Origin: an uncultured Gammaproteobacteria bacterium
GTDB taxonomy: Bacteria > Patescibacteriota > Microgenomatia > PFEM01 > JAHIFH01
Direction of reading: 5' to 3'
Length of the DNA stretch: 64,000 nucleotides
Assembly (NCBI GenBank): GCA_964653685.1
Contig: CAZZHA010000001.1
Location: 5,794 to 69,793 of the forward strand
The notes beneath the pieces were generated by a model. That model made no database searches. It worked only from the letters and a program-made list of their open reading frames with translations, and was not told where the DNA came from. Both the position numbers and the translations under genes were made by a program. Shown one piece after another: positions 28,380 to 38,887 of this stretch. The stretch's first letter is position 1. Each line of letters begins with the position of its first letter.

Positions 28380-29768
28380 TTATTTTGCTTTAGTCGTCTC
28401 GCTGGCGGAAGTCTCGCGGATACAAGTCACCTTAATCTGGCCAGCATAGGTGACTTTTTCTTCTAATTTTTGGGTAATTTTATTAGCCAAAACTACCAGT
28501 TCGTCATCATTAACTTCTTCTGGTTTAACCATGACCCGAACATCTCGACCGGCCTGATAAGCAAACGCCTCCTCCACTCCCTTGAATTTATTAGCAATTT
28601 CTTCAATTTCCTCCATTCGCTTCACGTACTCTTCATGAGCGGCGTATCTAGCGCCTGGTCGGGAGCCGGAAATAGCGTCAGCAACCCAAATAATCCGCGA
28701 TTCAGCTGACGAAAAAGGTTTATCTTCATGATGTTCGGCAATACAAGCAACCACTTCTTTGGGAATACCGTATTTCTTGGCTAATTCAACTCCTAACTGG
28801 ACATGGGTACCTTCTTCCTCAGTGACCACTTTGCCAATATCGTGAAGGAGACAACTCAAACGAACAATATTAACATCGGCCCCAACTTCATGAGCAATCT
28901 GAAGACCAATTTTGGTTTCTTCAAGAGTATGAGCGATCATGTTTTGACCATAAGAAAATCTGAATTTGAAACGGCCTAGAAGTTTAATTAAATCAGGATG
29001 AAGTTGATAAACATTAACCGCATGACAAAGCCTTTTACCTTCCTCGAACATAATCTTCTCAACTTCTTTTTTAGTTTGACTAACAACTTCTTTAATTCTG
29101 GCTGGCTGAATTCTTTGGTCTCTAATTAATTTTTGCAAAGCTCTTTTGGCAATTTCCCGACGAATTGAATCAAAAGAAGAAATAATAATGTCATTAGCAT
29201 CACCTAATTCAATCTCCACTCCTGTAGCCTGTTCAAAAGCCCGAATGTTTCTGCCCTCACGACCAATCACCCTACCTTTCAATTCCTCACTCGGCAGTTG
29301 AACCGAAGAAACCGTGTACTCGGCCACATAATCAGTGGCTCCATGCTGCATGGCTTCAACCAATAACTCTTTGGCTTTCTCTTCAACTGTCTCTTCAACT
29401 TCTTCTTCCGCTTCTTTAACTTTGCGAGCCATACTTTCAGCTAGACGTTTCTCCGTTGCTTCCAATAAAAGATTTTTGGCTTCCTCGCGAGTTAATTCAG
29501 CAATCTTTTCTAATTTAGCAATTACTTTTTTTCTTATCTCTTCAACTTCAGTTAATTTCTTATCCAAATCTTGTTGACGCTTATCAAGCTGGTTTTCTTT
29601 TTCCTCTAAAGCCCCTTCTCTTCTTTCAATTTCTGCAATTTTAGTTGCCAGCTCTTTAGCGATTTTTTTACTGTTCACTTTTTTTGTCGATTTTACTTCT
29701 TTCCCACCTTTTTGAGTTGCTTTTTCTTCGTCTAAAGCTTTGGTTAATAAATTATCTAATAATCCCAT
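28380..29768 (-). CDS. rny: ribonuclease Y (short N-terminus)
   Basis: Coiled-coil, KH domain (GREGRNIRAFEQATG), HD domain (LLHDIGK). Confidence 0.75.
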   Translation of the reverse strand: MGLLDNLLTKALDEEKATQKGGKEVKSTKKVNSKKIAKELATKIAEIERREGALEEKENQLDKRQQDLDKKLTEVEEIRKKVIAKLEKIAELTREEAKNLLLEATEKRLAESMARKVKEAEEEVEETVEEKAKELLVEAMQHGATDYVAEYTVSSVQLPSEELKGRVIGREGRNIRAFEQATGVEIELGDANDIIISSFDSIRREIAKRALQKLIRDQRIQPARIKEVVSQTKKEVEKIMFEEGKRLCHAVNVYQLHPDLIKLLGRFKFRFSYGQNMIAHTLEETKIGLQIAHEVGADVNIVRLSCLLHDIGKVVTEEEGTHVQLGVELAKKYGIPKEVVACIAEHHEDKPFSSAESRIIWVADAISGSRPGARYAAHEEYVKRMEEIEEIANKFKGVEEAFAYQAGRDVRVMVKPEEVNDDELVVLANKITQKLEEKVTYAGQIKVTCIRETSASETTKAK

Positions 29769-29942
29769 AAAACCTCCCTATTAATAATCTTTGGCGATTT
29801 GGCTTTTGGTAACGGAAAATGGTCGTTAGAAGATAACGGTTTATATCAAATCTAGATATAATCTACCTTTTTTAGAAGCCATGATTCGTAATACCAACTT
29901 CGCCAAAAAAACTAATAATAACTAAATTTCAACAGTTTTATT

Positions 29943-30560
29943 TTACCAATTTTCTAAGTATTTATCAATAACTGTTCTAATTACTTCCCAAGAAAAACCG
30001 CGCCGAGCCAAAAAAGCCGACATTTTTCGATAAAATTCATTTTTGGACAGATTTTTATAAGTCTTTAATTTCTTTTGGGCTAATTTTTCAGCCAAATGCA
30101 ACTCACTGACACTCTCAACCGTCTCTTTAATAACAGTCTTATCAATTCCTTTTTGACGTAATTCCATGGTCAAACCATACTTGCCTCGAGGCCGAAAGAT
30201 CGTTCTTTGGTCAACCCACCAACGGGCAAATTCCCGATCATCTATTTGTTTTAATTCTTTTAATTTAGCAATTACTTTTTCGGCTACTTTTGAAGATGAT
30301 CTCTTTTTCTTAAAATAATTGCGAATTTCTTTTTCAGATCGAGGTCGCCTGGAGATTAAACGAAAAGCCCTATCCAGTGATTTTTGAAATTCATTTTTAA
30401 AAATTAAATCATCTATTTGTTTTTGATTTAATTTCTGGCCAATTTTTAAACGAGCTTTTAAAAAATTATCAGCATCTAAACCAAAAGAGAATTTACCATC
30501 GAGATAAAGATTAACACGCTTTTTGTTTTTTTGGGCTTTGATTTTGGTTACTTGGGGCAC
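29943..30560 (-). CDS. recX: recombination regulator RecX
   Basis: RecX-like repeats; immediately downstream of recA. Confidence 0.7.
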   Translation of the reverse strand: MPQVTKIKAQKNKKRVNLYLDGKFSFGLDADNFLKARLKIGQKLNQKQIDDLIFKNEFQKSLDRAFRLISRRPRSEKEIRNYFKKKRSSSKVAEKVIAKLKELKQIDDREFARWWVDQRTIFRPRGKYGLTMELRQKGIDKTVIKETVESVSELHLAEKLAQKKLKTYKNLSKNEFYRKMSAFLARRGFSWEVIRTVIDKYLENW

Positions 30561-30572
30561 TAGATTAGGAAG

Positions 30573-31655
30573 CTACTCTTTCTTTTTTTCGCCAATTTCT
30601 CTAGACAAATCTAATTTACCAGCTTTAACTTTCCCCCAAATTTCTTTTTCAATTTTTTTCGCTATTTGAGGGTGTTCTTCTAGATAAGCCTTAGCTGCCT
30701 CTCTACCTTGACCGAGCATGATTTTGTCAAACTTAAAAAAAGCACCTGACTTCTCAATAATCTCTAGTTCAACCGCCACATCAATCAAATTACCTGACTG
30801 AGAAATACCACCAACATTCATAATATCAAATTCGGCCACCCGAAAAGGCGGCGCTACTTTGTTCTTAACTACTCTAGCTCGATGACGCGAACCAATCACA
30901 ATTTCACCATCTTTAATGGCCCCAATTTTTCGTAAATCAACTCTGACCGAAGAATAAAACTTTAAAGCTAAACCGCCAGGGGTGGTTTCCGGATTACCAA
31001 ACATCACGCCAATTTTATGACGGAGTTGATTAGTAAAGATAACAATTGTTTTTGACTTGGAAATAGCCGCGGTCAACTTTCTCAAAGCTTGAGACATTAA
31101 TCTGGCCTGAACACCAATCATCGCTTCGCCCATCTCGCCCTCAATCTCGGCCCGGGGTGTCAAAGCAGCCACAGAATCAATAGCAACAACATCAATCGCT
31201 CCAGACCGAACCAAAGTCTCGACAATTTCCAAAGCCTGTTCACCGGTGTCAGGTTGGGAAATTAACAATTCATCCAGATCAACCCCAATGGATTCGGCTC
31301 GAGCCGGATCCATGGCATGTTCCGCATCAACAAAAGCAGCTGAACCATCTCTTTTTTGGGCTTCAGCAATCACATGCAAAGCCAAAGTGGTCTTACCTGA
31401 AGCTTCAGGTCCGTAAATCTCGACCACTCGACCTCTGGGTAAACCACCCACACCAAGAGCGACGTCTAAAGCAATTGAACCAGTAGGGACAACATTAACT
31501 TTCTTGACTTCACCCTTGCTACCCATTCTCATAATCGCCCCTTTACCATATTGTTTTTCGATCTGTTCCATCGCCATTCTAACAGCTAGAGCTTTTTTAC
31601 TAGAAGTGTCTTTTTTAACAACAGGATTTTTAGGAGTTTTTTTCTTTCTTGCCAT
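30573..31655 (-). CDS. recA: recombinase RecA
   Basis: [33 protein letters not shown] and other RecA motifs. Confidence 0.95.
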
Positions 31656-31664
31656 CTTTTTAGA

Positions 31665-31692
31665 TTTTTACACAAAATGTGATAAAATTCAA
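31665..31692 (-). promoter_or_regulatory. putative recA promoter (TTGAAT-16-TGTGTAAAAAT extended -10), very short leader
   Basis: Hexamers read on minus strand; -10 ends 9 nt before the recA ATG. Confidence 0.35.
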
Positions 31693-31699
31693 GATGTAA

Positions 31700-31773
31700 C
31701 GGGGTGTGGCGCAGTTGGCTAGCGCGCACGCATGGGGTGCGTGAGGTCGCCGGTTCGAGCCCGGCCACCCCGA
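31700..31773 (+). tRNA. tRNA-Pro (anticodon GGG)
   Basis: Hand-folded cloverleaf: acceptor CGGGGUG/CACCCCG (C1-G72), D-stem GCGC/GCGC, anticodon stem CACGC/GCGUG, loop AUGGGGU, T-arm GCCGG-UUCGAGC-CCGGC, discriminator A. Confidence 0.9.
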
Positions 31774-31778
31774 CAAAA

Positions 31779-32129
31779 ATGAAAATTTTTCTTCGTAAAG
31801 ATAAAAAACTTCGTGACCCAGGTAATTTTTATTTTGGCGATTACGGTGAAATTCCTATTGGTATTTCTTTAACAACAATCAATGAAGACAATCTTGACGA
31901 AAGCAAAGACACGAAACATTATCATCAAAAAGGCTATGAATTTTATTTTACTATTAAAGGTAAAGCTATTATTGAAATTAAAGATAAAGAAGTCGTTTTA
32001 GATAAAAATCATCTGATTATGGTCGAACCAGGTGAAAAACATTACGTTAAAAAAATTCTTAAAACTCCTTTTTCTGTGTTATCAATTTCCACTTTAAAAG
32101 ATAAAACTGATAAAGTTGTTGCGAAATAA
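31779..32129 (+). CDS. small cupin-like protein (start moved to ATG after tRNA-Pro)
   Basis: ORF-track N-terminus overlaps the tRNA; first ATG after tRNA at 31779 (MKIFLRKD...); cupin-like G..H.H region. Confidence 0.45.
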   Translation: MKIFLRKDKKLRDPGNFYFGDYGEIPIGISLTTINEDNLDESKDTKHYHQKGYEFYFTIKGKAIIEIKDKEVVLDKNHLIMVEPGEKHYVKKILKTPFSVLSISTLKDKTDKVVAK

Positions 32130-32143
32130 TTAGTAGAAATTTT

Positions 32144-33265
32144 CTATTTCTTGAAAAGAATCCTACTGGCTAAAATCGTGGTAATTGGAACAGCCAGAAT
32201 AAGGCCAATACTCCCGACTAAAGTCCTGACAATTTCTTCAGCGATCATTTGGTAATTAATAATCTCTGAAAACGGTCGGGGATTATCAATAAAAAGAAGC
32301 ATCAAAGGTAAAGCGGCCCCAGTATAAACCAAAACTAAAGTGTTAATCATTGAAGCAATATGGTCTTGACCAACATTCATGGCTCTTTTAAACAATTCTT
32401 TGGTTTTCATCTTTGGATTAGCCTCTTTTAATTGCTGGACAATCGCCGCCTGGGAAACAGTGATGTCATCCAAGACACCTAAAGTACCAATAATAATCCC
32501 TGCTAATAAAATTCCTCTCATGTTAATTTGGCCTTGTTTAGCCAAATGAAGAAAAGCGGCTTCTTCTGAAGCATAACCAGTTAATTTGGTTAGCTCAATA
32601 AAAAATCTTGATAAAAGACCAACAATTAACAAAGCAATTAAGGTTCCGGCCATGGCTATCAAGGTCTTTCGATTCAAACCATGAGAAAGAAAAAAAGTGG
32701 CCGGAATAATAATCAATGAACCAATAATGGCAATGACAATCGGATCTTCGCCTTGATAAATCCGAGGTAGAATGAACAAGAAAATAACGGCCAAAGAGAT
32801 AATCAGGCCTAATAAAGACATCCCACCTCGCCATTGACCGACTATCAAAGCCAAAACAGCAAAGACCAAAAAAAGCCAAACTAATGGCTTTCGCCGAACA
32901 AAATCAGTGATAATAAAAATGTTCTTGCCTTCAAAATCCTGAGAATAACTAATCACTACTTCATCACCTACTTGATATTTAGGCTGGCCAACAACGGAAA
33001 TATCGCCTACTTCAACTCTGATTTCTTCACTGGCTAGAGAACCCTTGGAGACTCTAACCTGTAATTCTTGGTAAAGAAGTTTTTCACCATCTCTAATCAT
33101 AGATTTTTCGTCAAGAATCCCAATGACTTTGCCTTCAAGGAGTTCCTCTTGGAGGAGGCTTGTTTCCGTCTCTTCGGTTTCCTGCGACCAAACATAATTA
33201 ATCGGCAAATAAGAGAAGATTAAAATAAAAAAAAGAAAACAAACTAATAGTTTCTTCATAACCAT
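32144..33265 (-). CDS. YibE/F-like integral membrane protein
   Basis: Signal/TM, roughly 110-aa extracytoplasmic domain, then multi-TM domain; architecture resembles YibE/F. Confidence 0.35.
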   Translation of the reverse strand: MVMKKLLVCFLFFILIFSYLPINYVWSQETEETETSLLQEELLEGKVIGILDEKSMIRDGEKLLYQELQVRVSKGSLASEEIRVEVGDISVVGQPKYQVGDEVVISYSQDFEGKNIFIITDFVRRKPLVWLFLVFAVLALIVGQWRGGMSLLGLIISLAVIFLFILPRIYQGEDPIVIAIIGSLIIIPATFFLSHGLNRKTLIAMAGTLIALLIVGLLSRFFIELTKLTGYASEEAAFLHLAKQGQINMRGILLAGIIIGTLGVLDDITVSQAAIVQQLKEANPKMKTKELFKRAMNVGQDHIASMINTLVLVYTGAALPLMLLFIDNPRPFSEIINYQMIAEEIVRTLVGSIGLILAVPITTILASRILFKK

Positions 33266-34440
33266 CCTAAGACCATTGCCAAACCTAAGACTAGAATAAT
33301 GAGACCGGCAATTAAATGAAGATATTTAATATTTTTATCTTTCCAACCAGCCACATTCTCAACCGTGGTAAAGCCAATATAGCAAACGCCAGTAATCACC
33401 AACATCGGCAAAACAAAAATCAAATTATAAAGTAACAACCAGGGAATTACTTGAACTAAATCAAAGGTACATAAAATACCACCGCAAATCACATAAGGAC
33501 CGATCGTACAAGGGAGAAGAAAAAGGGTAACTAAAGCCCCAACAATAAAAGCACCTCTAGGGCTAGTAACTTTAAACATTAGACCTTGGACTTTGGGACG
33601 CAGAAACATCGGCATTTCGGTTAAAAAGCCGCCCGGTTTATAACGAATAAAATCTCTAAGATTTAGAATTCCTAAAATGATCGCTGCTAATCCTAAAATT
33701 CTATAAAGCCATAATTTAAGGTTTGTTAAAGCCTGAATTAATTGGAAAAACCTAATAATCACCAAACCATAGAAGAAATACATTACAAAAACGGCTGTGG
33801 TGAAAGCTAAGCCAGCTAAGAGGATATTATAACGCTTTTTCGGAGCAAAGGCTAAAATAGCAAAAAGCATCATCACTAAGACTGCCAGAGCACAAGGATT
33901 GATGGCATCAACCGCGGCCAAAGAAATAATCTTCGGTAAGGTCAATTCTGTTTGAATTGTCTCGCCCGAAGACACAGAGATACTGCCAGCTGACGCTGAT
34001 AAAATTTCTGGCTTGCCTGGCAAAGTTGAAATATCCAAATCTCCAAAGCTGGTCGAACTACCATCAACCAAAGGGCAGGCATTACCTTCTAATTGCTTAA
34101 GCTTGGTTTCAATGTTCTCTAAAATTGGCCTATCACCAATAAGGAAATTATCCTTACCAAAAACAATTAAAGGAATACTTAAACCCGAACCATAAATTTC
34201 ATTATATTTAGTCAATAAGGGTGCATTATTTCTTTGTTGATAAATTTCATATTCAATGATAACTAAATTGGGATACTTTTTAGGTAATTCTTTAAGGAGA
34301 ACTGGATCAACTTGGGCGCAATGAGGACAACCAACGCCAGTAAAGTAAATCAGGCAAGTTTTCTCTTCGGCCTGGAGAGACGATGAAAACAAGACTGTCA
34401 GTAATAAAATGGAAACAAAAAAAATGGCTAATTTCTTCAT
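33256..34440 (-). CDS. thioredoxin-fold (CPHC) domain fused to DsbD/CcdA-like transmembrane thiol-disulfide transporter domain
   Basis: Signal peptide; CxxC active site YFTGVGCPHCAQ; C-terminal multi-TM domain with paired Cys (AINPCALAV; LLPCTIGP) typical of CcdA/DsbD beta-domain. Confidence 0.55.
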   Translation of the reverse strand: MKKLAIFFVSILLLTVLFSSSLQAEEKTCLIYFTGVGCPHCAQVDPVLLKELPKKYPNLVIIEYEIYQQRNNAPLLTKYNEIYGSGLSIPLIVFGKDNFLIGDRPILENIETKLKQLEGNACPLVDGSSTSFGDLDISTLPGKPEILSASAGSISVSSGETIQTELTLPKIISLAAVDAINPCALAVLVMMLFAILAFAPKKRYNILLAGLAFTTAVFVMYFFYGLVIIRFFQLIQALTNLKLWLYRILGLAAIILGILNLRDFIRYKPGGFLTEMPMFLRPKVQGLMFKVTSPRGAFIVGALVTLFLLPCTIGPYVICGGILCTFDLVQVIPWLLLYNLIFVLPMLVITGVCYIGFTTVENVAGWKDKNIKYLHLIAGLIILVLGLAMVLGWL

Positions 34441-34478
34441 TCAGCTATTCTTTAGGATAAGTAATTTTAGCTTTTTTT

Positions 34479-34778
34479 TCAACCACGAATCATTTTCACT
34501 CGACCTCCCTCAATCCTAATAGCTTTACCTTCAACTAAACCTTCGCTTACTTTTTTTCTAGCGGAAGTGAGGATTCGTTGAAAAGTGGATTGAGAAACTT
34601 TCATCTTTTTGGCCGCTTTAATTTGTTCAACACCTTGATAATCAGCTGAACGAATGGCTTCTAATTCATCGACACTTAATTTAACCTCCCTTAAATAGCG
34701 CAAAGGTATTCCCCGGGGCTTGTAGTAAGTCACTCCTGGTTGAAATGATATCCACCGCCATCTTTTTGGTCTAGGCAT
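34479..34778 (-). CDS. DUF134 (UPF0251) putative DNA-binding protein
   Basis: MPRPKR...F.P...YKP N-terminus and sigma-70 region-4-like HTH characteristic of DUF134. Confidence 0.6.
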
Positions 34779-34785
34779 GGTTAAA

Positions 34786-35034
34786 TTACTTGCCTTGAGT
34801 TTCTTTTTCCTCTTTGGTAACGTCTTCCAATTCTTCTTGAAGGGCTTTTTTATATTCTTTCAGCGCTTCAACTTCTTCTTCTTTAGATTGAGGCCATGGC
34901 CAACCGAAGTAACGTCCCATTCCCCGACCGGGAGAAAAACGACGACGCCAACCCAGACCTAGTCCACAAGGACCAAAGCCGCGACCAGTTAAAGATCCCT
35001 GACCACTCGGTCCTGTCTGATCAAATCTTGGCAT
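34786..35034 (-). CDS. DUF5320 family protein
   Basis: [24 protein letters not shown] Gly-rich single-Cys N-terminus plus acidic coiled-coil tail, as recalled for DUF5320. Confidence 0.5.
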
Positions 35035-35075
35035 AAATATTCACCTCCTCTCTTTTTTATTATGAATATATACCC

Positions 35076-35103
35076 ATTATAACACGGATAGGCGAGTTGT
35101 CAA
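35076..35103 (-). promoter_or_regulatory. strong sigma70-type promoter (TTGACA-16-TATAAT) upstream of the DUF5320-DUF134 gene string
   Basis: Read on minus strand; followed by SD GAGAGGAGGTG. Confidence 0.55.
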
Positions 35104-35126
35104 GGGTTATCTTTTTTCTAAGAGAA

Positions 35127-35570
35127 TTATCTTTTCGGAGATTGTTTTTTAGCTCGGGCTGATTGGGCAAGGCCGGCTTTGCGGCGCTCTTTCATTCGCG
35201 GGTCACGAGTTAAAAGACCAGCTTTTTTTAAAGGCAGATGATACAGTTCAGAGTTTTCTTTAGCCAGAGCTCTGGCTAAGCCATGGACAACTGCTCCCAA
35301 TTGACCATTTTTACCTGATCCTCTAACCTTAACCGTCGCGTAATATTTCCCTTCAGTTTTGGTGACCTGAAACGGCTTCATGTAAACGAATTCATTAACC
35401 TCACCCGGAAACCATTCTTCAATTGGCCGATCATTAACCACCAAATCGCCTTTGCCTTTTAAGAGTCTTACCCGGGCCACAGCTTCTTTTCTTCGACCAA
35501 GAGCATAAGTATAGGCTTTTTTCCGACCCCGCTTGGTTTTTCTGACTTTAACTGTTTTTTTAGTCACCAT
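35127..35570 (-). CDS. rpsI: 30S ribosomal protein S9 (N-terminal extension)
   Basis: GRRKEAVARV motif, C-terminal ...KR. Confidence 0.9.
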   Translation of the reverse strand: MVTKKTVKVRKTKRGRKKAYTYALGRRKEAVARVRLLKGKGDLVVNDRPIEEWFPGEVNEFVYMKPFQVTKTEGKYYATVKVRGSGKNGQLGAVVHGLARALAKENSELYHLPLKKAGLLTRDPRMKERRKAGLAQSARAKKQSPKR

Positions 35571-35989
35571 TATTTTTTAAATTTATCCTGATAAAGATGT
35601 TGATCGTCGCTAAACACTTTTAATCTCCTTAGTCTTTGATCTCTTAATTTATTTTTAGGTAACATACCACTGACAGCGTAGTGAATTATTTTTCTCGGAT
35701 CACGCTTCATCAATTCCTCAAAAGTTCTTTCCTTAAAACCACCAGGATAACCAGAATGATGCTGGTAGAGTTTTTGTTTTCTTTTACGACCACTGACTTC
35801 AACTTCGGCCGCATTAATAACAACAACATAATCACCGCAATCTAAATTGGTCGAGTAATAAACCTTGGTTTTACCAATTAATAATCCCGCAATCTGACTT
35901 GCTACCCGACCCAGTCTCTTATCCTTAACATCAATCAAGTACCAGCCTCTTTTAATTTCACTTGCTTTGGTTGTCTTTGTTTTTTTCAT
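35570..35989 (-). CDS. rplM: 50S ribosomal protein L13
   Basis: IKRGWYLIDVKDKRLGRVAS N-terminus. Confidence 0.9.
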   Translation of the reverse strand: MKKTKTTKASEIKRGWYLIDVKDKRLGRVASQIAGLLIGKTKVYYSTNLDCGDYVVVINAAEVEVSGRKRKQKLYQHHSGYPGGFKERTFEELMKRDPRKIIHYAVSGMLPKNKLRDQRLRRLKVFSDDQHLYQDKFKK

Positions 35990-36422
35990 TTTTTCCTCGC
36001 ACTAAGTCTTTCTTTTTCTTGTTCGACTTTTTCGGTTTTTCTTTTCCTGACTTTTCTTCAGATTTAGGTTTAGCCACTAATTCTAACTTCACCATAGTGG
36101 CATCATCACCACGACGTTGACCCAGACGAATGATTCTAGTAAAACCGCTTGATCTATCTTTAAATTGAGGAGTAATATTATCGACCAACTTATTAACAAC
36201 TTTCCTGTTATTAAGAAAAGCCTCTATTGTTCTTCGAGTGTGGAGAGTATTCTTTTTGCCCTTGGTGACTAAGCGATCAAAAAGTCGACGGACTGCCTTA
36301 GCCTTACTCTCGGTTGTTTTGATTTCCCCATGCAAAATCAAAGCGCTGAGTAAATTTTTAAACAGCGCTCGGCGGTGACTTCTTTTTCGAGATAGTTTCT
36401 TTTTAGTCACTCTATGCTTCAT
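35958..36422 (-). CDS. rplQ: 50S ribosomal protein L17 (Lys-rich C-terminal extension overlapping rplM start)
   Basis: MKHRVTKKKLSRKRSHRRAL N-terminus. Confidence 0.9.
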   Translation of the reverse strand: MKHRVTKKKLSRKRSHRRALFKNLLSALILHGEIKTTESKAKAVRRLFDRLVTKGKKNTLHTRRTIEAFLNNRKVVNKLVDNITPQFKDRSSGFTRIIRLGQRRGDDATMVKLELVAKPKSEEKSGKEKPKKSNKKKKDLVRGKNEKNKDNQSK

Positions 36423-36469
36423 TTTACTCGATTCTCAGAGAAATAAGATTCTCGCCAAAGTAATCTCTC

Positions 36470-37393
36470 TTATTTTTTCTTTTTCTTGAGAGAAACTCCT
36501 TTTTGGGATAAGGCAGCTTCAACGATGTTGACCGACTTTTCACCCAAATTTTTGACTTTAGCCAAATCGGCTTCGGTTGCCTCAACTAGATTAGCTACCG
36601 TACCATAACCTCCTTTACGGAGAGCGTTGGCGATTCTGGTTGGTAAGTCAAGCTCCTCCACTGTCAATCTCAGATTCAAATTAGGCATTTCACCCTTGGC
36701 CTTTTCCTTTTTAGGCATCTTTTTAGGAGAAGCTATTTGTTGGAAATAGCTAACCAGAATCTCAGCTGACTGTTTTAAGGCCTGACTGGGTTTAAGACTA
36801 CCGTCAGTGGTAATCTCGAAAACCAACCGATTCAAGTCAGTTCTCCGACCAACTCGAGTAGATTCGATTCGATAATTAACCTGAAGAATAGGACTAAAGA
36901 TCGCGTCAATTGGAATCTCGCCCAATTTTTCTACTTCTCTCTCTTCGGCCGGTAGATAACCATAACCAGTCTCAACAATCATCTCTGCCTTGAATCGATT
37001 CTTCCGACTAGCTAAATTGCCAATAACCAAGTCTGGATTAGCAATGTTGACATTAGCCGGAGTTTTAATATCACTCGCCTTAATTTCACCAGGACCAGTT
37101 TTTTCTAAAGTCAATTTGACTGGTTTTTTTCCTTCATAACCAACCTTAACCTGTTTAAGACCAAGAATAAACTCAATGATATCTTCCTTTAATCCTTCAA
37201 GGGTAGAAAATTTATGCTTAACGCCCGCGATCTTTACTTGAGTAATGGCGGCGCCTGGCAAAGCCGAAAGCAAAACTCGCCGCAAAGCATTACCCAGAGT
37301 GTGTCCAAATCCAAGCTCCAGGGGTTCAATCACAAAATGACCAAAATCCTGGGTTTCCTTTTCTTTTTTAATTCGAAATAATGGTTCTATCAT
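36470..37393 (-). CDS. rpoA: DNA-directed RNA polymerase subunit alpha
   Basis: GHTLGNALRRVLLS motif; C-terminal domain. Confidence 0.9.
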   Translation of the reverse strand: MIEPLFRIKKEKETQDFGHFVIEPLELGFGHTLGNALRRVLLSALPGAAITQVKIAGVKHKFSTLEGLKEDIIEFILGLKQVKVGYEGKKPVKLTLEKTGPGEIKASDIKTPANVNIANPDLVIGNLASRKNRFKAEMIVETGYGYLPAEEREVEKLGEIPIDAIFSPILQVNYRIESTRVGRRTDLNRLVFEITTDGSLKPSQALKQSAEILVSYFQQIASPKKMPKKEKAKGEMPNLNLRLTVEELDLPTRIANALRKGGYGTVANLVEATEADLAKVKNLGEKSVNIVEAALSQKGVSLKKKKK

Positions 37394-37415
37394 TAACCTC
37401 CTTTTATTATTAAAA

Positions 37416-38039
37416 TTATCTTGAATAATATTCGATTATTAACTTATCGTCAATAGCAGCTTCAATCTCTTCTCTTTTTGGCAGACGCATCATTTTACCA
37501 ATTGGGCCCTTTCTTTGCAACCATTTAGGCATATTCCTAGTCCTATCAGCCCAATTTTTCTCCACCGCCGCTATTTTCATCGCCTTCTCACTAATTCGAA
37601 TAAGATCATTAGGCTTAACTTGATAAGAAGCAATGTTAACTCTTTTGTCGTTAACATAAACATGGTCATGACTCACTAACTGCCTGGCGATTGACCGGGA
37701 GGGTGCCAAACCTAAGCGATAGACCACGTTATCTAGCCTTGATTCTAAAAGTTGAAAAAGAACCTCACCAGTCACTTGAGGATTTTTAGCTGCCTTATTA
37801 ACATAACGACGAAACTGCTTCTCCAAAACCCCATAGAGTCTTTTCGCTTTTTGTTTTTCCCTTAACTGCTGACCATATTCGCTTAATCTTTTCCTTAACC
37901 TAGGACCATGTTGGCCTGGAGGTACTGCTCCTTTTCTCTCAATTGGGCATTTGGGCGAATAACAACGTTCACCCTTTAAAAAAAGTTTGATTCCTTCGCG
38001 TCGGCAGAGCCGACATTTAGCATCAGTGTATCTTGCCAT
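37416..38039 (-). CDS. rpsD: 30S ribosomal protein S4
   Basis: MARYTDAKCRLCRREG..., S4 domain. Confidence 0.9.
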   Translation of the reverse strand: MARYTDAKCRLCRREGIKLFLKGERCYSPKCPIERKGAVPPGQHGPRLRKRLSEYGQQLREKQKAKRLYGVLEKQFRRYVNKAAKNPQVTGEVLFQLLESRLDNVVYRLGLAPSRSIARQLVSHDHVYVNDKRVNIASYQVKPNDLIRISEKAMKIAAVEKNWADRTRNMPKWLQRKGPIGKMMRLPKREEIEAAIDDKLIIEYYSR

Positions 38040-38447
38040 TTAAACTCTCCTTTTCTTTTTTGGCCTTGGTCCATTATGAGGAATTGGGGTTACATCAGCG
38101 ATCAAATTCATTTTGATGCCAGCTGCCCTCAAAGCTCTTAAAGCTGAATCGCGGCCCGATCCTGGACCTTTAATATAAACTTCAACTTCCCTGAGACCGT
38201 GAGCTAAAGCTTTTTTAGCGGCTTTTTCAACGGTACTAATAGCCGCAAAAGGAGTTGATTTTCTTGCTCCCTTAAAACCGACTTCACCTGAACTTCCCCA
38301 ACAAACGGTATTACCTTTTAAATCAGTAAAGGTAATGATCGTATTGTTAAAAGTAGCCTGGATGTAAACTTTTCCTTTAGCCACAATCTTAGGCTCTTTC
38401 TTTTGGGGTTTGGTTTTAGTTTTTTCTTTTTTAGCTTTAACCATCAT
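38040..38447 (-). CDS. rpsK: 30S ribosomal protein S11
   Basis: Characteristic S11 core. Confidence 0.9.
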
Positions 38448-38887
38448 GCCTCCTTATTTTCTTTGGCTGCTTTCTCCTCTTCTGGATTCTTCTCGGCAAC
38501 ACCAAACTTAGTTAAATCCTTTTTGCGTAATGCTCCAATTGTCTTTCGCTTACCCCTTTTTGTCCGAGCATTCGATCGAGTTCTCTGGCCACGAGAAGGT
38601 AAACCCTGCAAATGCCTCGTTCCTCGATAACTTCCAGTCACTTTCAGTTGCTTAATATTCTCGTTCACGATCGTTCTTAACTCTCCCTCCGTAGGTATTT
38701 TTTCAACCGTCTTTTGTAAACGGGTAATTTCTTCGGCCGTCAAATCCTTAATTCTTTTATTAGCATCAACGGCCGCTGTTTCTAAAACCCCTTGAACATT
38801 TCTCCGACCAATACCATAAATGGCGGTTAAACCGCTATCAACTTTTTTCTCAACTGGTAAATCAACTCCGGCAATTCGAACAGCCAT
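38444..38887 (-). CDS. rpsM: 30S ribosomal protein S13 (C-terminal extension)
   Basis: [12 protein letters not shown]-terminus. Confidence 0.9.

What the first reader, a model, noticed from the sequence alone, without database searches (positions are those of the whole stretch)
32144..35103. DUF5320 - DUF134 - thioredoxin::CcdA fusion - YibE/F-like membrane protein string behind a consensus promoter
A strong TTGACA-16-TATAAT promoter with SD (35076-35103) drives four same-strand, closely spaced genes. The first is a Gly-rich single-Cys DUF5320 protein with an acidic coiled coil. The second is a DUF134 HTH protein. The third is a secreted CPHC thioredoxin domain fused to a DsbD/CcdA-type membrane electron-transfer domain. 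The fourth is a large polytopic YibE/F-like protein. DUF134/DUF5320 pairs are poorly characterised putative regulators common in anaerobes. Their linkage to an extracytoplasmic thiol-disulfide relay suggests a redox- or metal-responsive envelope system in this organism.
Basis: inference. Interest (0 to 1): 0.5.

Follow-up and report, generated by a model that had tools for sequence, protein, structure and literature searches.

The report
Self-regulated metal/thiol envelope operon
A four-gene operon in a candidate-phyla (Patescibacteria) bacterium pairs two uncharacterised regulator proteins with a membrane thiol-reductase fusion and a YibE/F membrane protein, and comparing relatives reveals the DNA operator the regulator reads, which makes an uncharacterised regulator family (DUF134) found in both bacteria and archaea directly testable.

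Summary
Four minus-strand genes sit behind a 12/12 sigma-70 promoter: DUF5320, DUF134, a thioredoxin::6-TM fusion and YibE/F.

New here: a 16-bp palindrome (ATGRRTATATAYYCAT, window 35062-35077) overlaps the -10 box and the start region. It is the only such site in the 64 kb. The same palindrome heads DUF5320/DUF134 operons in about 56 of 80 metagenome loci, in CPR bacteria and DPANN archaea.

DUF134's recognition-helix residue (window Q63) covaries with operator base 6/11: Gln with T/A and Arg with C/G in 87 of 88 pairs. DUF134 therefore most likely reads this operator and autoregulates, probably as a repressor.

DUF134 also occurs fused to the DUF5320 motif, to NifX-like domains and to YibE/F.

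Regulon cargo elsewhere is ORP-like NifX/MinD-ferredoxin genes and CDF, ZIP and Znu transporters, which points to metal or Fe-S/thiol homeostasis. The signal and the substrates are inferred, not shown.

The parts
35098..35103 (-). -35 hexamer TTGACA
   Evidence: Part of the 12/12 promoter match. Conserved in relatives while the spacer between the hexamers diverges.
35076..35081 (-). -10 hexamer TATAAT with an upstream TG
35062..35077 (.). 16-bp operator palindrome. It reads ATGGGTATATATTCAT on the gene strand and belongs to the family ATGRRTATATAYYCAT. It overlaps the last 2 nt of the -10 box and the expected transcription start.
   Evidence: It is the only site in the 64 kb at up to 2 mismatches, with 0.19 expected. 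The same motif sits at the head of DUF5320/DUF134 operons in other loci. It covaries with DUF134 residue Q63.
35042..35048 (-). Shine-Dalgarno GGAGGTG, 7 nt upstream of the DUF5320 ATG
   Evidence: Read directly from the sequence. Conserved in relatives.
34786..35034 (-). DUF5320 protein (82 aa). It has the N-terminal motif MPRxDxTGPxGxGxxTGRGxGxC with a single Cys (C22), a Gly/Arg-rich middle and an acidic C-terminal coiled coil. It is the proposed co-sensor of DUF134.
   Evidence: Pfam 5.8e-16. Alignment. Every family member examined has at least one Cys. Its N-terminal motif occurs fused to DUF134 in L131.
34479..34778 (-). DUF134 helix-turn-helix protein (99 aa, short form, no Cys and no His). 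It is the proposed operator-binding autoregulator. The specificity residue is Q63.
   Evidence: Pfam 3.2e-25. The HTH matches the DeoR DNA-binding domain 7bhy at 5.3e-6. Helix/operator covariation holds in 87 of 88 pairs.
33256..34440 (-). Signal peptide + thioredoxin-fold domain (C38-P-H-C41, cis-Pro candidate P90) + linker + 6-TM CcdA-like domain (P182-C183 in TM1, P310-C311 in TM4).
32144..33265 (-). YibE/F-family membrane protein. It has an N-terminal TM anchor, an extracytoplasmic beta-domain (about residues 41-122) and a polytopic helical domain with invariant E234/E235, D266/D267 and D301/H302. Its start overlaps the preceding stop by 10 nt.
   Evidence: Pfam 3.6e-82. Invariant columns. 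Model. DUF134::YibE_F fusion proteins exist.

Best explanation
This is a self-regulated operon of a Patescibacteria (CPR) bacterium, and it belongs to a DUF134 regulon found in both CPR bacteria and DPANN archaea.

Regulation. DUF134 is a small DeoR/sigma-region-4-type helix-turn-helix protein. It binds, presumably as a dimer, the 16-bp palindrome that overlaps the -10 box and the transcription start. It thereby most likely represses its own promoter. Residue Q63 at the start of the recognition helix reads the T/A pair at operator positions 6 and 11.

Sensing. The short DUF134 in this window has no Cys or His, so the signal is probably sensed in trans. One candidate is the co-transcribed DUF5320, which has a single conserved Cys, a Gly/Arg-rich arm and a coiled coil for oligomerisation. 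The other is YibE/F. In other genomes these same modules, or a NifX-like cluster-binding domain, are fused directly to DUF134.

Cargo, gene 3. It is a signal-peptide-led, membrane-tethered thioredoxin-fold domain (CPHC) joined to a CcdA-like 6-TM domain. The two Pro-Cys cysteines in the membrane would pass reducing equivalents from cytoplasmic thiols to the outer CPHC. That would keep extracytoplasmic cysteines reduced, in the manner of CcdA-ResA or ScsB-ScsC.

Cargo, gene 4. It is a YibE/F membrane protein with invariant acidic and His residues in its helices, proposed to be a divalent-cation transporter or sensor.

What is shown and what is inferred. Shown by computation: the gene string, the family and fold assignments, the conserved operator and its covariation with DUF134, the domain fusions, and the neighbourhoods. 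Inferred: repression rather than activation, the sensing role of DUF5320, the direction of electron flow, metal or Fe-S status as the signal, and the YibE/F substrate.
For: Operator evidence:
- It is the unique site in the window (0.19 expected).
- Exact matches in 14 loci all lie 2-66 nt upstream of a DUF5320 or DUF134 start.
- In loci anchored on the fusion gene there are 35 sites at up to 2 mismatches in 1.23 Mb. Of these, 31 sit at the head of such operons, against 7-21 randomly placed sites in shuffles.
- In loci anchored on DUF134 there are 67 sites in 555 kb. Of these, 65 lie within -60 to +250 nt of the start of an annotated cluster gene, nearly always the DUF5320/DUF134 head, in 56 of 80 loci.
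- The footprint is a conserved -35, a variable spacer, then the -10 fused to the operator. In archaeal-type loci a TTTAAATA box takes the place of the -35 and -10 hexamers.

DUF134 as the binder:
- Its HTH matches the DeoR DNA-binding domain at 5.3e-6.
- Helix residue Gln goes with operator T6/A11 (44 pairs) and Arg with C6/G11 (43 pairs), with 1 exception in 88 pairs. There are 52 distinct helix/operator pairs.
- Both classes occur within Aenigmatarchaeota, so the pattern is not just base composition.

Sensor modules. Pfam-confirmed fusions are DUF134::DUF5320 motif (L131), DUF134::Nitro_FeMo-Co (L149, L166, L053) and DUF134::YibE_F (P0185 and three further 90%-identity clusters).

The fusion protein. 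In L012 it is followed by a small thioredoxin and NifU.

Metal context. Neighbours include CDF, ZIP, TRASH, ZnuABC and ORP-like NifX/MinD-ferredoxin genes. The ORP proteins bind Fe-S clusters (PMC6345978).
Against: There are no transcript, binding or redox data.

- No terminator separates rpsI (which ends at 35127) from the promoter, so read-through from the ribosomal operon is possible.
- The membrane domain reaches no curated DsbD/CcdA model.
- Foldseek against the PDB did not list CcdA in its top 50.
- The internal TM1-3/TM4-6 repeat is not detectable by sequence.
- About half of the fusion genes have no DUF134 nearby, and YibE/F accompanies the fusion in only 4 of 79 loci.
- The Gln/Arg covariation counts sequences, not independent evolutionary events.
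- This window lacks every ORP-like and metal-transporter gene, so the metal link is by association only.
Confidence: 0.6

Rival explanations
1. The thioredoxin::6-TM protein is a thiol-relay transporter for soft metals rather than an electron transporter. The outer CPHC would capture a metal ion and hand it to the two membrane cysteines for translocation. This would resemble MerP/MerT, or CadD-type members of the LysE/DsbD superfamily.
For: - The nearest Pfam neighbours are LysE-clan transporter-like families (SfLAP in 22 of 28 members) rather than PF02683.
- The genomic company is CDF, ZIP, TRASH and Znu metal-transport genes.
- The N-domain profile's best solved relatives are copper-resistance ScsC proteins.
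Against: - A two-gene split into a Trx-like protein plus a 232-aa membrane protein mirrors the organisation of CcdA with an extracytoplasmic thioredoxin-like partner.
- A small cytoplasmic-type thioredoxin is a neighbour in 12 of 79 loci.
- The MerT/MerP comparison rests on memory and was not tested here.
Confidence: 0.2
2. The four genes are not one functional unit. DUF5320 and DUF134 regulate only themselves or distant targets. The fusion gene and YibE/F are independent housekeeping membrane proteins that happen to lie downstream and may be transcribed by read-through from the ribosomal operon.
For: - Cargo downstream of DUF134 varies widely between genomes, and many fusion genes and some YibE/F genes lack DUF134 nearby.
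- There is no terminator upstream of the promoter.
Against: - The gaps are 7 and 38 nt and the last junction overlaps by 10 nt, with no internal promoter or operator.
- The same order recurs in diverged relatives located in different genomic surroundings (L054, L100, L017, L018).
- DUF134 is fused in frame to YibE/F in four protein clusters.
- The operator also heads clusters ending in the fusion gene where no DUF134 is nearby (L040, L065).
Confidence: 0.1
3. DUF134 is an activator, or a dual regulator, rather than a repressor. Alternatively the palindrome is read by another factor, with DUF134 merely co-inherited.
For: The direction of regulation was not tested. Some loci carry two tandem operator copies (L079, L080, L082, L128), an arrangement also seen with activators.
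Against: - The operator overlaps the -10 box and the start in bacterial loci. It lies just downstream of the TATA-like box in archaeal loci. These are the classic repressor positions (established knowledge of promoter occlusion).
- The 87-of-88 match between the DUF134 helix residue and the operator base is hard to explain if another protein reads the site.
Confidence: 0.1

Closest known systems
CcdA / DsbD-beta membrane thiol-disulfide transporters with extracytoplasmic thioredoxin-like partners (solved CcdA, PDB 5vkv)
   Same: - Six TM helices.
- One conserved Cys preceded by Pro at a helix break in TM1 and one in TM4.
- The N-terminus is outside and carries, or neighbours, a thioredoxin-fold CxxC domain.
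- The stand-alone membrane gene is 232-234 aa.
   Different: - It reaches no curated DsbD/DsbD_2 threshold. Its nearest Pfam neighbours are sub-threshold SfLAP and DsbD_2.
- The thioredoxin domain is fused N-terminally behind a signal peptide.
- By record title, the 80 retrieved loci are mostly CPR bacteria and DPANN archaea. From background knowledge not tested here, these lineages generally lack c-type cytochromes, so the classical CcdA client is probably absent.
- It is embedded in a DUF134 regulon.
ScsB-ScsC copper-tolerance reductase system (ScsC structures 4xvw, 6nen, 6mhh, 4gxz)
   Same: The N-domain profile's best solved relatives are ScsC proteins (1.2e-4 to 7e-4). Both have a CPxC active site on an extracytoplasmic Trx-fold protein that is kept reduced by a DsbD-type membrane protein, and both are linked to metal stress.
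   Different: - The window domain is a minimal Trx fold without the DsbA-type helical insertion.
- The membrane partner is CcdA-sized, not ScsB.
- A copper connection is not shown.
Desulfovibrio vulgaris ORP (orange protein) complex and its regulator OrpR (PMC6345978, PMC8359166)
   Same: The commonest cargo of the DUF134/DUF5320 operator in other genomes is NifX-like (Nitro_FeMo-Co) proteins plus MinD-type ATPases with ferredoxin domains. That is the ORP composition. By its title, OrpR senses redox through an Fe-S cluster.
   Different: - This window has no ORP-like gene.
- In Desulfovibrio, regulation uses a sigma-54 enhancer-binding protein. Here it uses a small HTH protein with a sigma-70 or archaeal promoter and an overlapping palindrome.
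DeoR/SorC-type N-terminal helix-turn-helix DNA-binding domain (B. subtilis DeoR, PDB 7bhy)
   Same: DUF134 residues 39-76 align to the DeoR DNA-binding domain at 5.3e-6, including the 'IS(R/Q)PT..R.L' recognition helix. The target is a palindromic operator.
   Different: DUF134 has a distinctive basic N-terminal arm (MPRPRxxR...YFKPxG) and no sugar-phosphate sensor domain. Its sensor modules are the DUF5320 motif, a Cys-rich ribbon, a NifX-like domain or YibE/F.
Membrane-bound one-component regulators such as BcrR or ToxR/CadC (from memory, not tested)
   Same: The DUF134::YibE_F fusions place a DNA-binding domain on the cytoplasmic end of a membrane protein.
   Different: In this window the two are separate polypeptides, and YibE/F is a large polytopic domain of unknown activity.

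Membership tests
Pfam DUF5320 (PF17253) | Profile match above the gathering score | tested here: met
   59.9 bits against a cut-off of 27, residues 1-75.
Pfam DUF134 / UPF0251 (PF02001) | Profile match above the gathering score; helix-turn-helix core | tested here: met
   89 bits against a cut-off of 27. The HTH aligns to the DeoR DNA-binding domain 7bhy at 5.3e-6.
Pfam YibE_F (PF07907) | Full-length profile match above the gathering score | tested here: met
   276 bits, profile positions 1-240 of 241.
Thioredoxin fold oxidoreductase | Beta-alpha-beta-alpha-beta-beta-alpha fold with CxxC at the start of helix 1 | tested here: met
Thioredoxin fold oxidoreductase | Pfam Thioredoxin match at the curated threshold | tested here: not met
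   18.4 bits against a cut-off of 23.5. 11 of 28 relatives match at E up to 1.
Thioredoxin fold oxidoreductase | Conserved cis-proline loop before strand 3 | tested here: inconclusive
   P90 is invariant and precedes strand E91-95. The cis conformation cannot be verified.
CcdA / DsbD membrane electron transporters | Match to curated models PF02683 (DsbD) or PF13386 (DsbD_2) | tested here: not met
   There is no PF02683 hit for any of 28 members. DsbD_2 hits 11 of 28 at E up to 1, the best being 2.1e-5. The one stand-alone 6-TM gene that hit DsbD_2 scored 23.1 bits, below the 24.9 cut-off. The window protein has no hit.
CcdA / DsbD membrane electron transporters | Two essential cysteines, one in TM1 and one in TM4, each preceded by Pro | tested here: met
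   N181-P182-C183 and L309-P310-C311 are invariant. All other Cys are variable. Both motifs coincide with helix breaks in the model.
CcdA / DsbD membrane electron transporters | Six-TM fold superposable on solved CcdA | tested here: met
CcdA / DsbD membrane electron transporters | Internal inverted repeat TM1-3 / TM4-6 | tested here: inconclusive
   hhalign of the two halves gives E 0.29, aligning only a TM3/TM6 stretch.
CcdA / DsbD membrane electron transporters | Transfers electrons from cytoplasmic thioredoxin to an extracytoplasmic partner | not testable with these tools
   This needs thiol-trapping or complementation experiments.
SfLAP / GAP family (PF11139) | Profile match above the gathering score | tested here: not met
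   The window protein has no hit. 22 of 28 relatives match at E up to 1. The two stand-alone 6-TM genes that hit SfLAP scored 30-32 bits, below the 35 cut-off.
ORP (orange protein) complex cluster | Presence of a Nitro_FeMo-Co protein and MinD-type ATPases with ferredoxin domains | tested here: not met
   None is present in the 64-kb window. They are present in many related loci.
ScsB/ScsC system | DsbA-like ScsC with a helical insertion plus an ScsB-type membrane protein | tested here: not met
   There is sequence similarity of the N-domain to ScsC (1e-4). However, the model is a minimal Trx fold with no insertion, and the membrane part is CcdA-sized.

The most novel reading that the evidence does not exclude
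DUF134 is the DNA-binding output module of an ancient repressor system shared by Bacteria and Archaea. It uses one operator grammar, ATG-NNN-ATAT-NNN-CAT, in which Gln or Arg at the start of the recognition helix reads position 6/11.

The module is wired to interchangeable metal-cluster or thiol sensor modules: the DUF5320 Gly-rich single-Cys motif, a Cys-rich ribbon, a NifX-like domain, or the YibE/F membrane domain acting as a transceptor.

In CPR and DPANN organisms this regulon has recruited a lineage-specific thioredoxin::CcdA-like family that supplies reducing power to the cell surface. That surface may be the interface through which these organisms, thought to live attached to host cells, make contact.
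Probability: 0.35. Interest if true: 0.75.

Novelty: new variant of a known kind. Interest (0 to 1): 0.6.

Why it matters
DUF134 (UPF0251/COG1342) and DUF5320 recur in uncultured CPR bacteria and DPANN archaea. A whole-word search of the held literature for these names returned five papers, none about their function.

They sit next to the equally enigmatic ORP-like NifX/MinD-ferredoxin clusters and next to metal transporters. A defined operator, a predicted specificity residue (Q63) and a set of natural sensor fusions turn 'unknown function' into a few simple experiments. They also allow the regulon to be predicted in any genome by motif search.

The thioredoxin::CcdA-like family has relatives in 401 species-level genomes. 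Among the 28 diverse members aligned it is 57-77% identical to the window protein, in both CPR bacteria and DPANN archaea. It is a candidate for how these small cells, which from background knowledge largely lack respiratory chains, keep surface thiols reduced.

Tried and rejected
- Literature. Whole-word searches for DUF134, DUF5320, UPF0251, COG1342, PF02001 and PF17253 gave 5 irrelevant papers. A word-start search was swamped by DUF134x names. The YibE/F search was swamped by unrelated 'Yibe...' words and gave nothing useful on the family. No paper holds the full 16-bp operator strings; the only hits were two unrelated papers containing a 12-base substring.
- Solved structures. There is no sequence relative in the PDB for YibE/F or DUF5320.
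- Foldseek of the fusion model against the PDB found only thioredoxins.
- hhalign for an internal repeat in the 6-TM domain gave E 0.29.
- NCBIfam gave nothing above its cut-offs.
- I considered DsbA/DsbB-type oxidation because of the CPHC motif. I rejected it as the primary reading because the membrane partner is CcdA-like. CPxC proteins such as ScsC, DsbC and DsbG are kept reduced by DsbD-type partners (established knowledge).
- I considered that the operator is merely AT-rich promoter sequence. I rejected this because a GC-containing variant (ATGAGCATATGCTCAT) occupies the same position, and because of the helix-base covariation.
- Not done: an Rfam scan of the short leader, and co-folding of DUF134 with DUF5320 (the tool folds single chains only).
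Full report
**What is there.** On the minus strand of the window, four ORFs follow one another:
- 35034-34786 (82 aa)
- 34778-34479 (99 aa)
- 34440-33256 (394 aa)
- 33265-32144 (373 aa)

They are separated by 7 nt, by 38 nt and by a 10-nt overlap. Upstream lies TTGACA-16-TATAAT (35103-35076), a 12/12 match with a TG extension. It is the only perfect match in 29000-38500, although the overall count of promoter-like sites in that region equals the shuffle expectation. A GGAGGTG Shine-Dalgarno sits 7 nt before the first ATG.

The string lies 23 nt downstream of rpsI, at the end of a ribosomal-protein/rpoA cluster, with no terminator-like site between them. It converges on a cupin gene, which is preceded by tRNA-Pro; recA, recX and rny lie beyond on the minus strand. 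The closest relative of gene 3 (97% identity) is labelled 'Patescibacteria group bacterium' and lies in the same arrangement on a 234-kb contig.

**Family checks.** Pfam confirms DUF5320 (59.9 bits), DUF134 (89 bits) and YibE_F (276 bits) above their gathering scores. NCBIfam adds nothing above its cut-offs.

The third protein is not captured by any curated model. Its Thioredoxin match is sub-threshold, and there is no DsbD match. Its relatives carry weak SfLAP/'GAP family' and DsbD_2 matches. Where the membrane half occurs as a stand-alone gene, the matches found stay below the cut-offs: two of six genes hit SfLAP, at 30-32 bits against 35, and one hits DsbD_2, at 23.1 bits against 24.9.

**The thioredoxin::6-TM protein.** An alignment of 28 diverse homologues is 57-77% identical to the window protein, across CPR bacteria and DPANN archaea. 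Exactly four cysteines are invariant:
- C38 and C41, in CPHC
- C183, in N-P-C
- C311, in L-P-C-T-I-G-P-Y

The AlphaFold model (pLDDT 76) shows these features:
- a signal peptide
- a minimal thioredoxin fold, with the CxxC at the start of helix 1 and an invariant Pro90 before strand 3
- a linker
- six TM helices, in which TM1 and TM4 are each broken exactly at the Pro-Cys motif

A profile of the family finds the copper-resistance proteins ScsC as the nearest solved relatives of the N-domain (1e-4). In 10 loci the two modules are separate adjacent genes with real stop codons: a 210-286-aa Trx protein and a 232-234-aa membrane protein. That is the classical organisation of CcdA with an extracytoplasmic Trx-like partner.

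I conclude that the protein works like CcdA with a tethered partner, but that it is a new, unmodelled family of the DsbD/LysE superfamily. A genome scan found relatives in 401 species-level genomes. The titles of the 80 loci retrieved are dominated by CPR and DPANN lineages.

**Neighbourhoods.** I called ORFs in the 80 loci anchored on the fusion gene and searched them with profiles built in-session. Counts within about 10 kb, out of 79 anchored loci:

| Neighbour | Loci |
|---|---|
| MinD-type ATPase with ferredoxin domains | 37 |
| DUF134 (28 of these within 5 kb) | 35 |
| Nitro_FeMo-Co (NifX-like) | 28 |
| DUF5320 | 27 |
| CDF | 17 |
| ZIP | 15 |
| small thioredoxin | 12 |
| split ArsP-like permease | about 10 |
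| YibE/F | 4 |

Precomputed Pfam labels in individual contigs agree.

A second census was anchored on DUF134 in metagenomes. Out of 80 loci, many of them short:

| Neighbour | Loci |
|---|---|
| DUF5320 | 45 |
| NifX-like | 37 |
| MinD-ferredoxin | 29 |
| CDF | 12 |
| the fusion | 11 |
| YibE/F | 4 |

Among the 23 loci with at least 3 kb on both sides of DUF134, the fusion is present in 8.

I then spot-checked three YibE/F relatives of the window protein. Two have DUF134 immediately upstream. One follows DUF5320-NifX-NifX-MinD/Fer4-CDF, with Rrf2-NifS-NifU nearby. The other follows ZnuA-ABC-ABC3-ZIP-DUF5320.

The NifX-like plus MinD-ferredoxin pair is the composition of the Desulfovibrio ORP complex, whose components bind Fe-S clusters (PMC6345978). 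The 64-kb window itself contains none of these extra genes. It holds a minimal version of the regulon.

**The operator.** Upstream regions of DUF5320 in relatives share a palindrome, TTATGAATATATATTCATAA. Its 16-bp core, ATGRRTATATAYYCAT, occurs once in the window, at 35062-35077, even when 2 mismatches are allowed (0.19 expected). It overlaps the last two bases of the -10 box and the expected start site.

- Exact matches in 14 loci all lie 2-66 nt upstream of a DUF5320 or DUF134 start.
- At up to 2 mismatches there are 35 sites in 1.23 Mb of fusion-anchored loci, against 7-21 in shuffles. Of these, 31 are at the head of DUF5320/DUF134- or NifX-led clusters. That count includes two clusters ending in the fusion gene with no DUF134 nearby.
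- In the DUF134-anchored loci there are 67 sites in 555 kb. Of these, 65 lie within -60 to +250 nt of the start of an annotated cluster gene, nearly always the DUF5320/DUF134 head, in 56 of 80 loci.
- A GC-containing flavour, ATGAGCATATGCTCAT, occupies the same position.

An alignment of ten upstream regions shows a footprint: conserved TTGACA, a divergent 17-nt spacer, (T/C)ATAAT fused to the operator, then the SD. In archaeal loci a TTTAAATA box lies a few bases upstream of the operator. These positions are those of a repressor.

**DUF134 reads the operator.** The DUF134 profile aligns its residues 39-76 to the DNA-binding domain of B. subtilis DeoR (7bhy, 5.3e-6) and to sigma region 4. The recognition helix begins with S-[Q/R]-x-T-F. 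In the window the variable residue is Q63.

Across 88 DUF134/operator pairs, Gln goes with T6/A11 (44 pairs) and Arg goes with C6/G11 (43 pairs). There is one exception, probably a spurious site. Among the 52 distinct helix/operator combinations the split is 27/24/1. Both classes occur within Aenigmatarchaeota (L080 against L034 and L063), so the pattern is not just base composition. Arg-guanine and Gln-adenine are the textbook contacts (established knowledge). The counts are of sequences, not of independent events.

**Sensor modules.** The window's DUF134 has no Cys or His. The window's DUF5320 has exactly one Cys, and every family member examined has at least one. Pfam confirms natural fusions:
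- DUF134 with the DUF5320 N-terminal motif plus a Cys-rich ribbon (L131)
- DUF134 with Nitro_FeMo-Co (L149, L166, L053)
- DUF134 with YibE/F (P0185, P0187, P0191, P0216). In these, DUF134 residues 1-88 run straight into the YibE/F membrane anchor.

The loci carrying the YibE/F fusion keep the same promoter/operator design. They also carry two DUF5320 paralogues, each with its own operator. This is the pattern expected if DUF134 is an output domain and the others are input modules.

**YibE/F.** The model (pLDDT 74, pTM 0.71) has an N-terminal anchor, an extracytoplasmic beta domain and a helical bundle. The bundle carries invariant E234/E235, D266/D267 and D301/H302. No solved relative exists by sequence, and none is specific by fold. 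A cation transporter or sensor role is inferred only from these residues and from the Znu, ZIP and CDF company.

**Verdict.** The most likely mechanism has three parts:
- DUF134 autorepresses the operon through the palindrome.
- DUF5320 and/or YibE/F convey a metal, Fe-S or thiol signal.
- The cargo is a CcdA-like reductant exporter with a tethered CPHC domain, plus a YibE/F membrane protein.

The signal, the direction of regulation, the electron flow and the substrates are all inferred. I found no description of the operator or of DUF134 function in the held literature. Subscription journals and regulon databases could not be searched.

Noticed in passing
window 31700-31774 (+) and 31704-32129 (+): tRNA-Pro(GGG) lies just after recA's upstream region. 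The mechanically listed cupin ORF (GTG at 31704) starts inside the tRNA. The real cupin start is probably the downstream Met at about 31776 (MKIFLRK...). The cupin converges on the YibE/F stop with a 14-nt gap.
   Followed up: partly
window 35104-35127: Only 23 nt separate the rpsI stop from the -35 box, and no terminator-like site is present. Read-through from the rplM-rpsI ribosomal operon into the DUF5320 operon is therefore possible.
   Followed up: no
L035, L051, L053, L057, L067, L071, L082, L083, L089, L091: The thioredoxin part and the 6-TM part of the fusion occur as two adjacent genes, with TAA/TAG stops and an SD between them. In L053, L067 and L071 they are followed by a DUF134::Nitro_FeMo-Co fusion gene; in L057 a short DUF134 follows.
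   Followed up: yes
A1 columns about 230-380 (for example P0074, P0083, P0095, P0120): Longer family members (about 470-530 aa) carry an extra 80-130-aa domain between the thioredoxin fold and TM1. Some versions have a Cys-rich segment (C-P-x-C-P-x-P-S-E-W-S-x-C-x-N-G-T...Y-K-C). Its function is unknown.
   Followed up: no
L094 1960-2294 and 5680-5985: One genome has two DUF5320 paralogues. Each has its own TTGAC(A/G)-17-CATAAT promoter fused to an operator copy. The second paralogue precedes the DUF134::YibE_F fusion gene.
   Followed up: partly
L003 3939-5183; L099-L102: A cation-diffusion-facilitator protein carries a C-terminal Nitro_FeMo-Co domain (CDF::NifX-like fusion). It recurs in many DUF134 clusters, which suggests that a metal-cluster-binding domain gates a metal exporter.
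   Followed up: no
L008 3818-5035; L021, L077, L081, L084: A split ArsP_1-like permease (about 140 aa plus about 170 aa) and a small NifX-like gene are often divergent from, or adjacent to, the DUF5320/DUF134 pair.
   Followed up: no
L014, L016, L018, L019, L054, L067, L071 (record titles): Several contigs with CPR-like gene content are titled 'uncultured Gammaproteobacteria', 'Devosiaceae' or 'Candidatus Saccharibacteria'. The taxonomic labels of these MAG records look unreliable.
   Followed up: no
L012 7412-8074; L177 6788-8762: In L012 a small thioredoxin and NifU follow the fusion gene. In L177 an Rrf2-NifS-NifU cluster lies 1.7 kb from the DUF134-YibE/F pair. Fe-S biogenesis genes recur near the system.
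   Followed up: no
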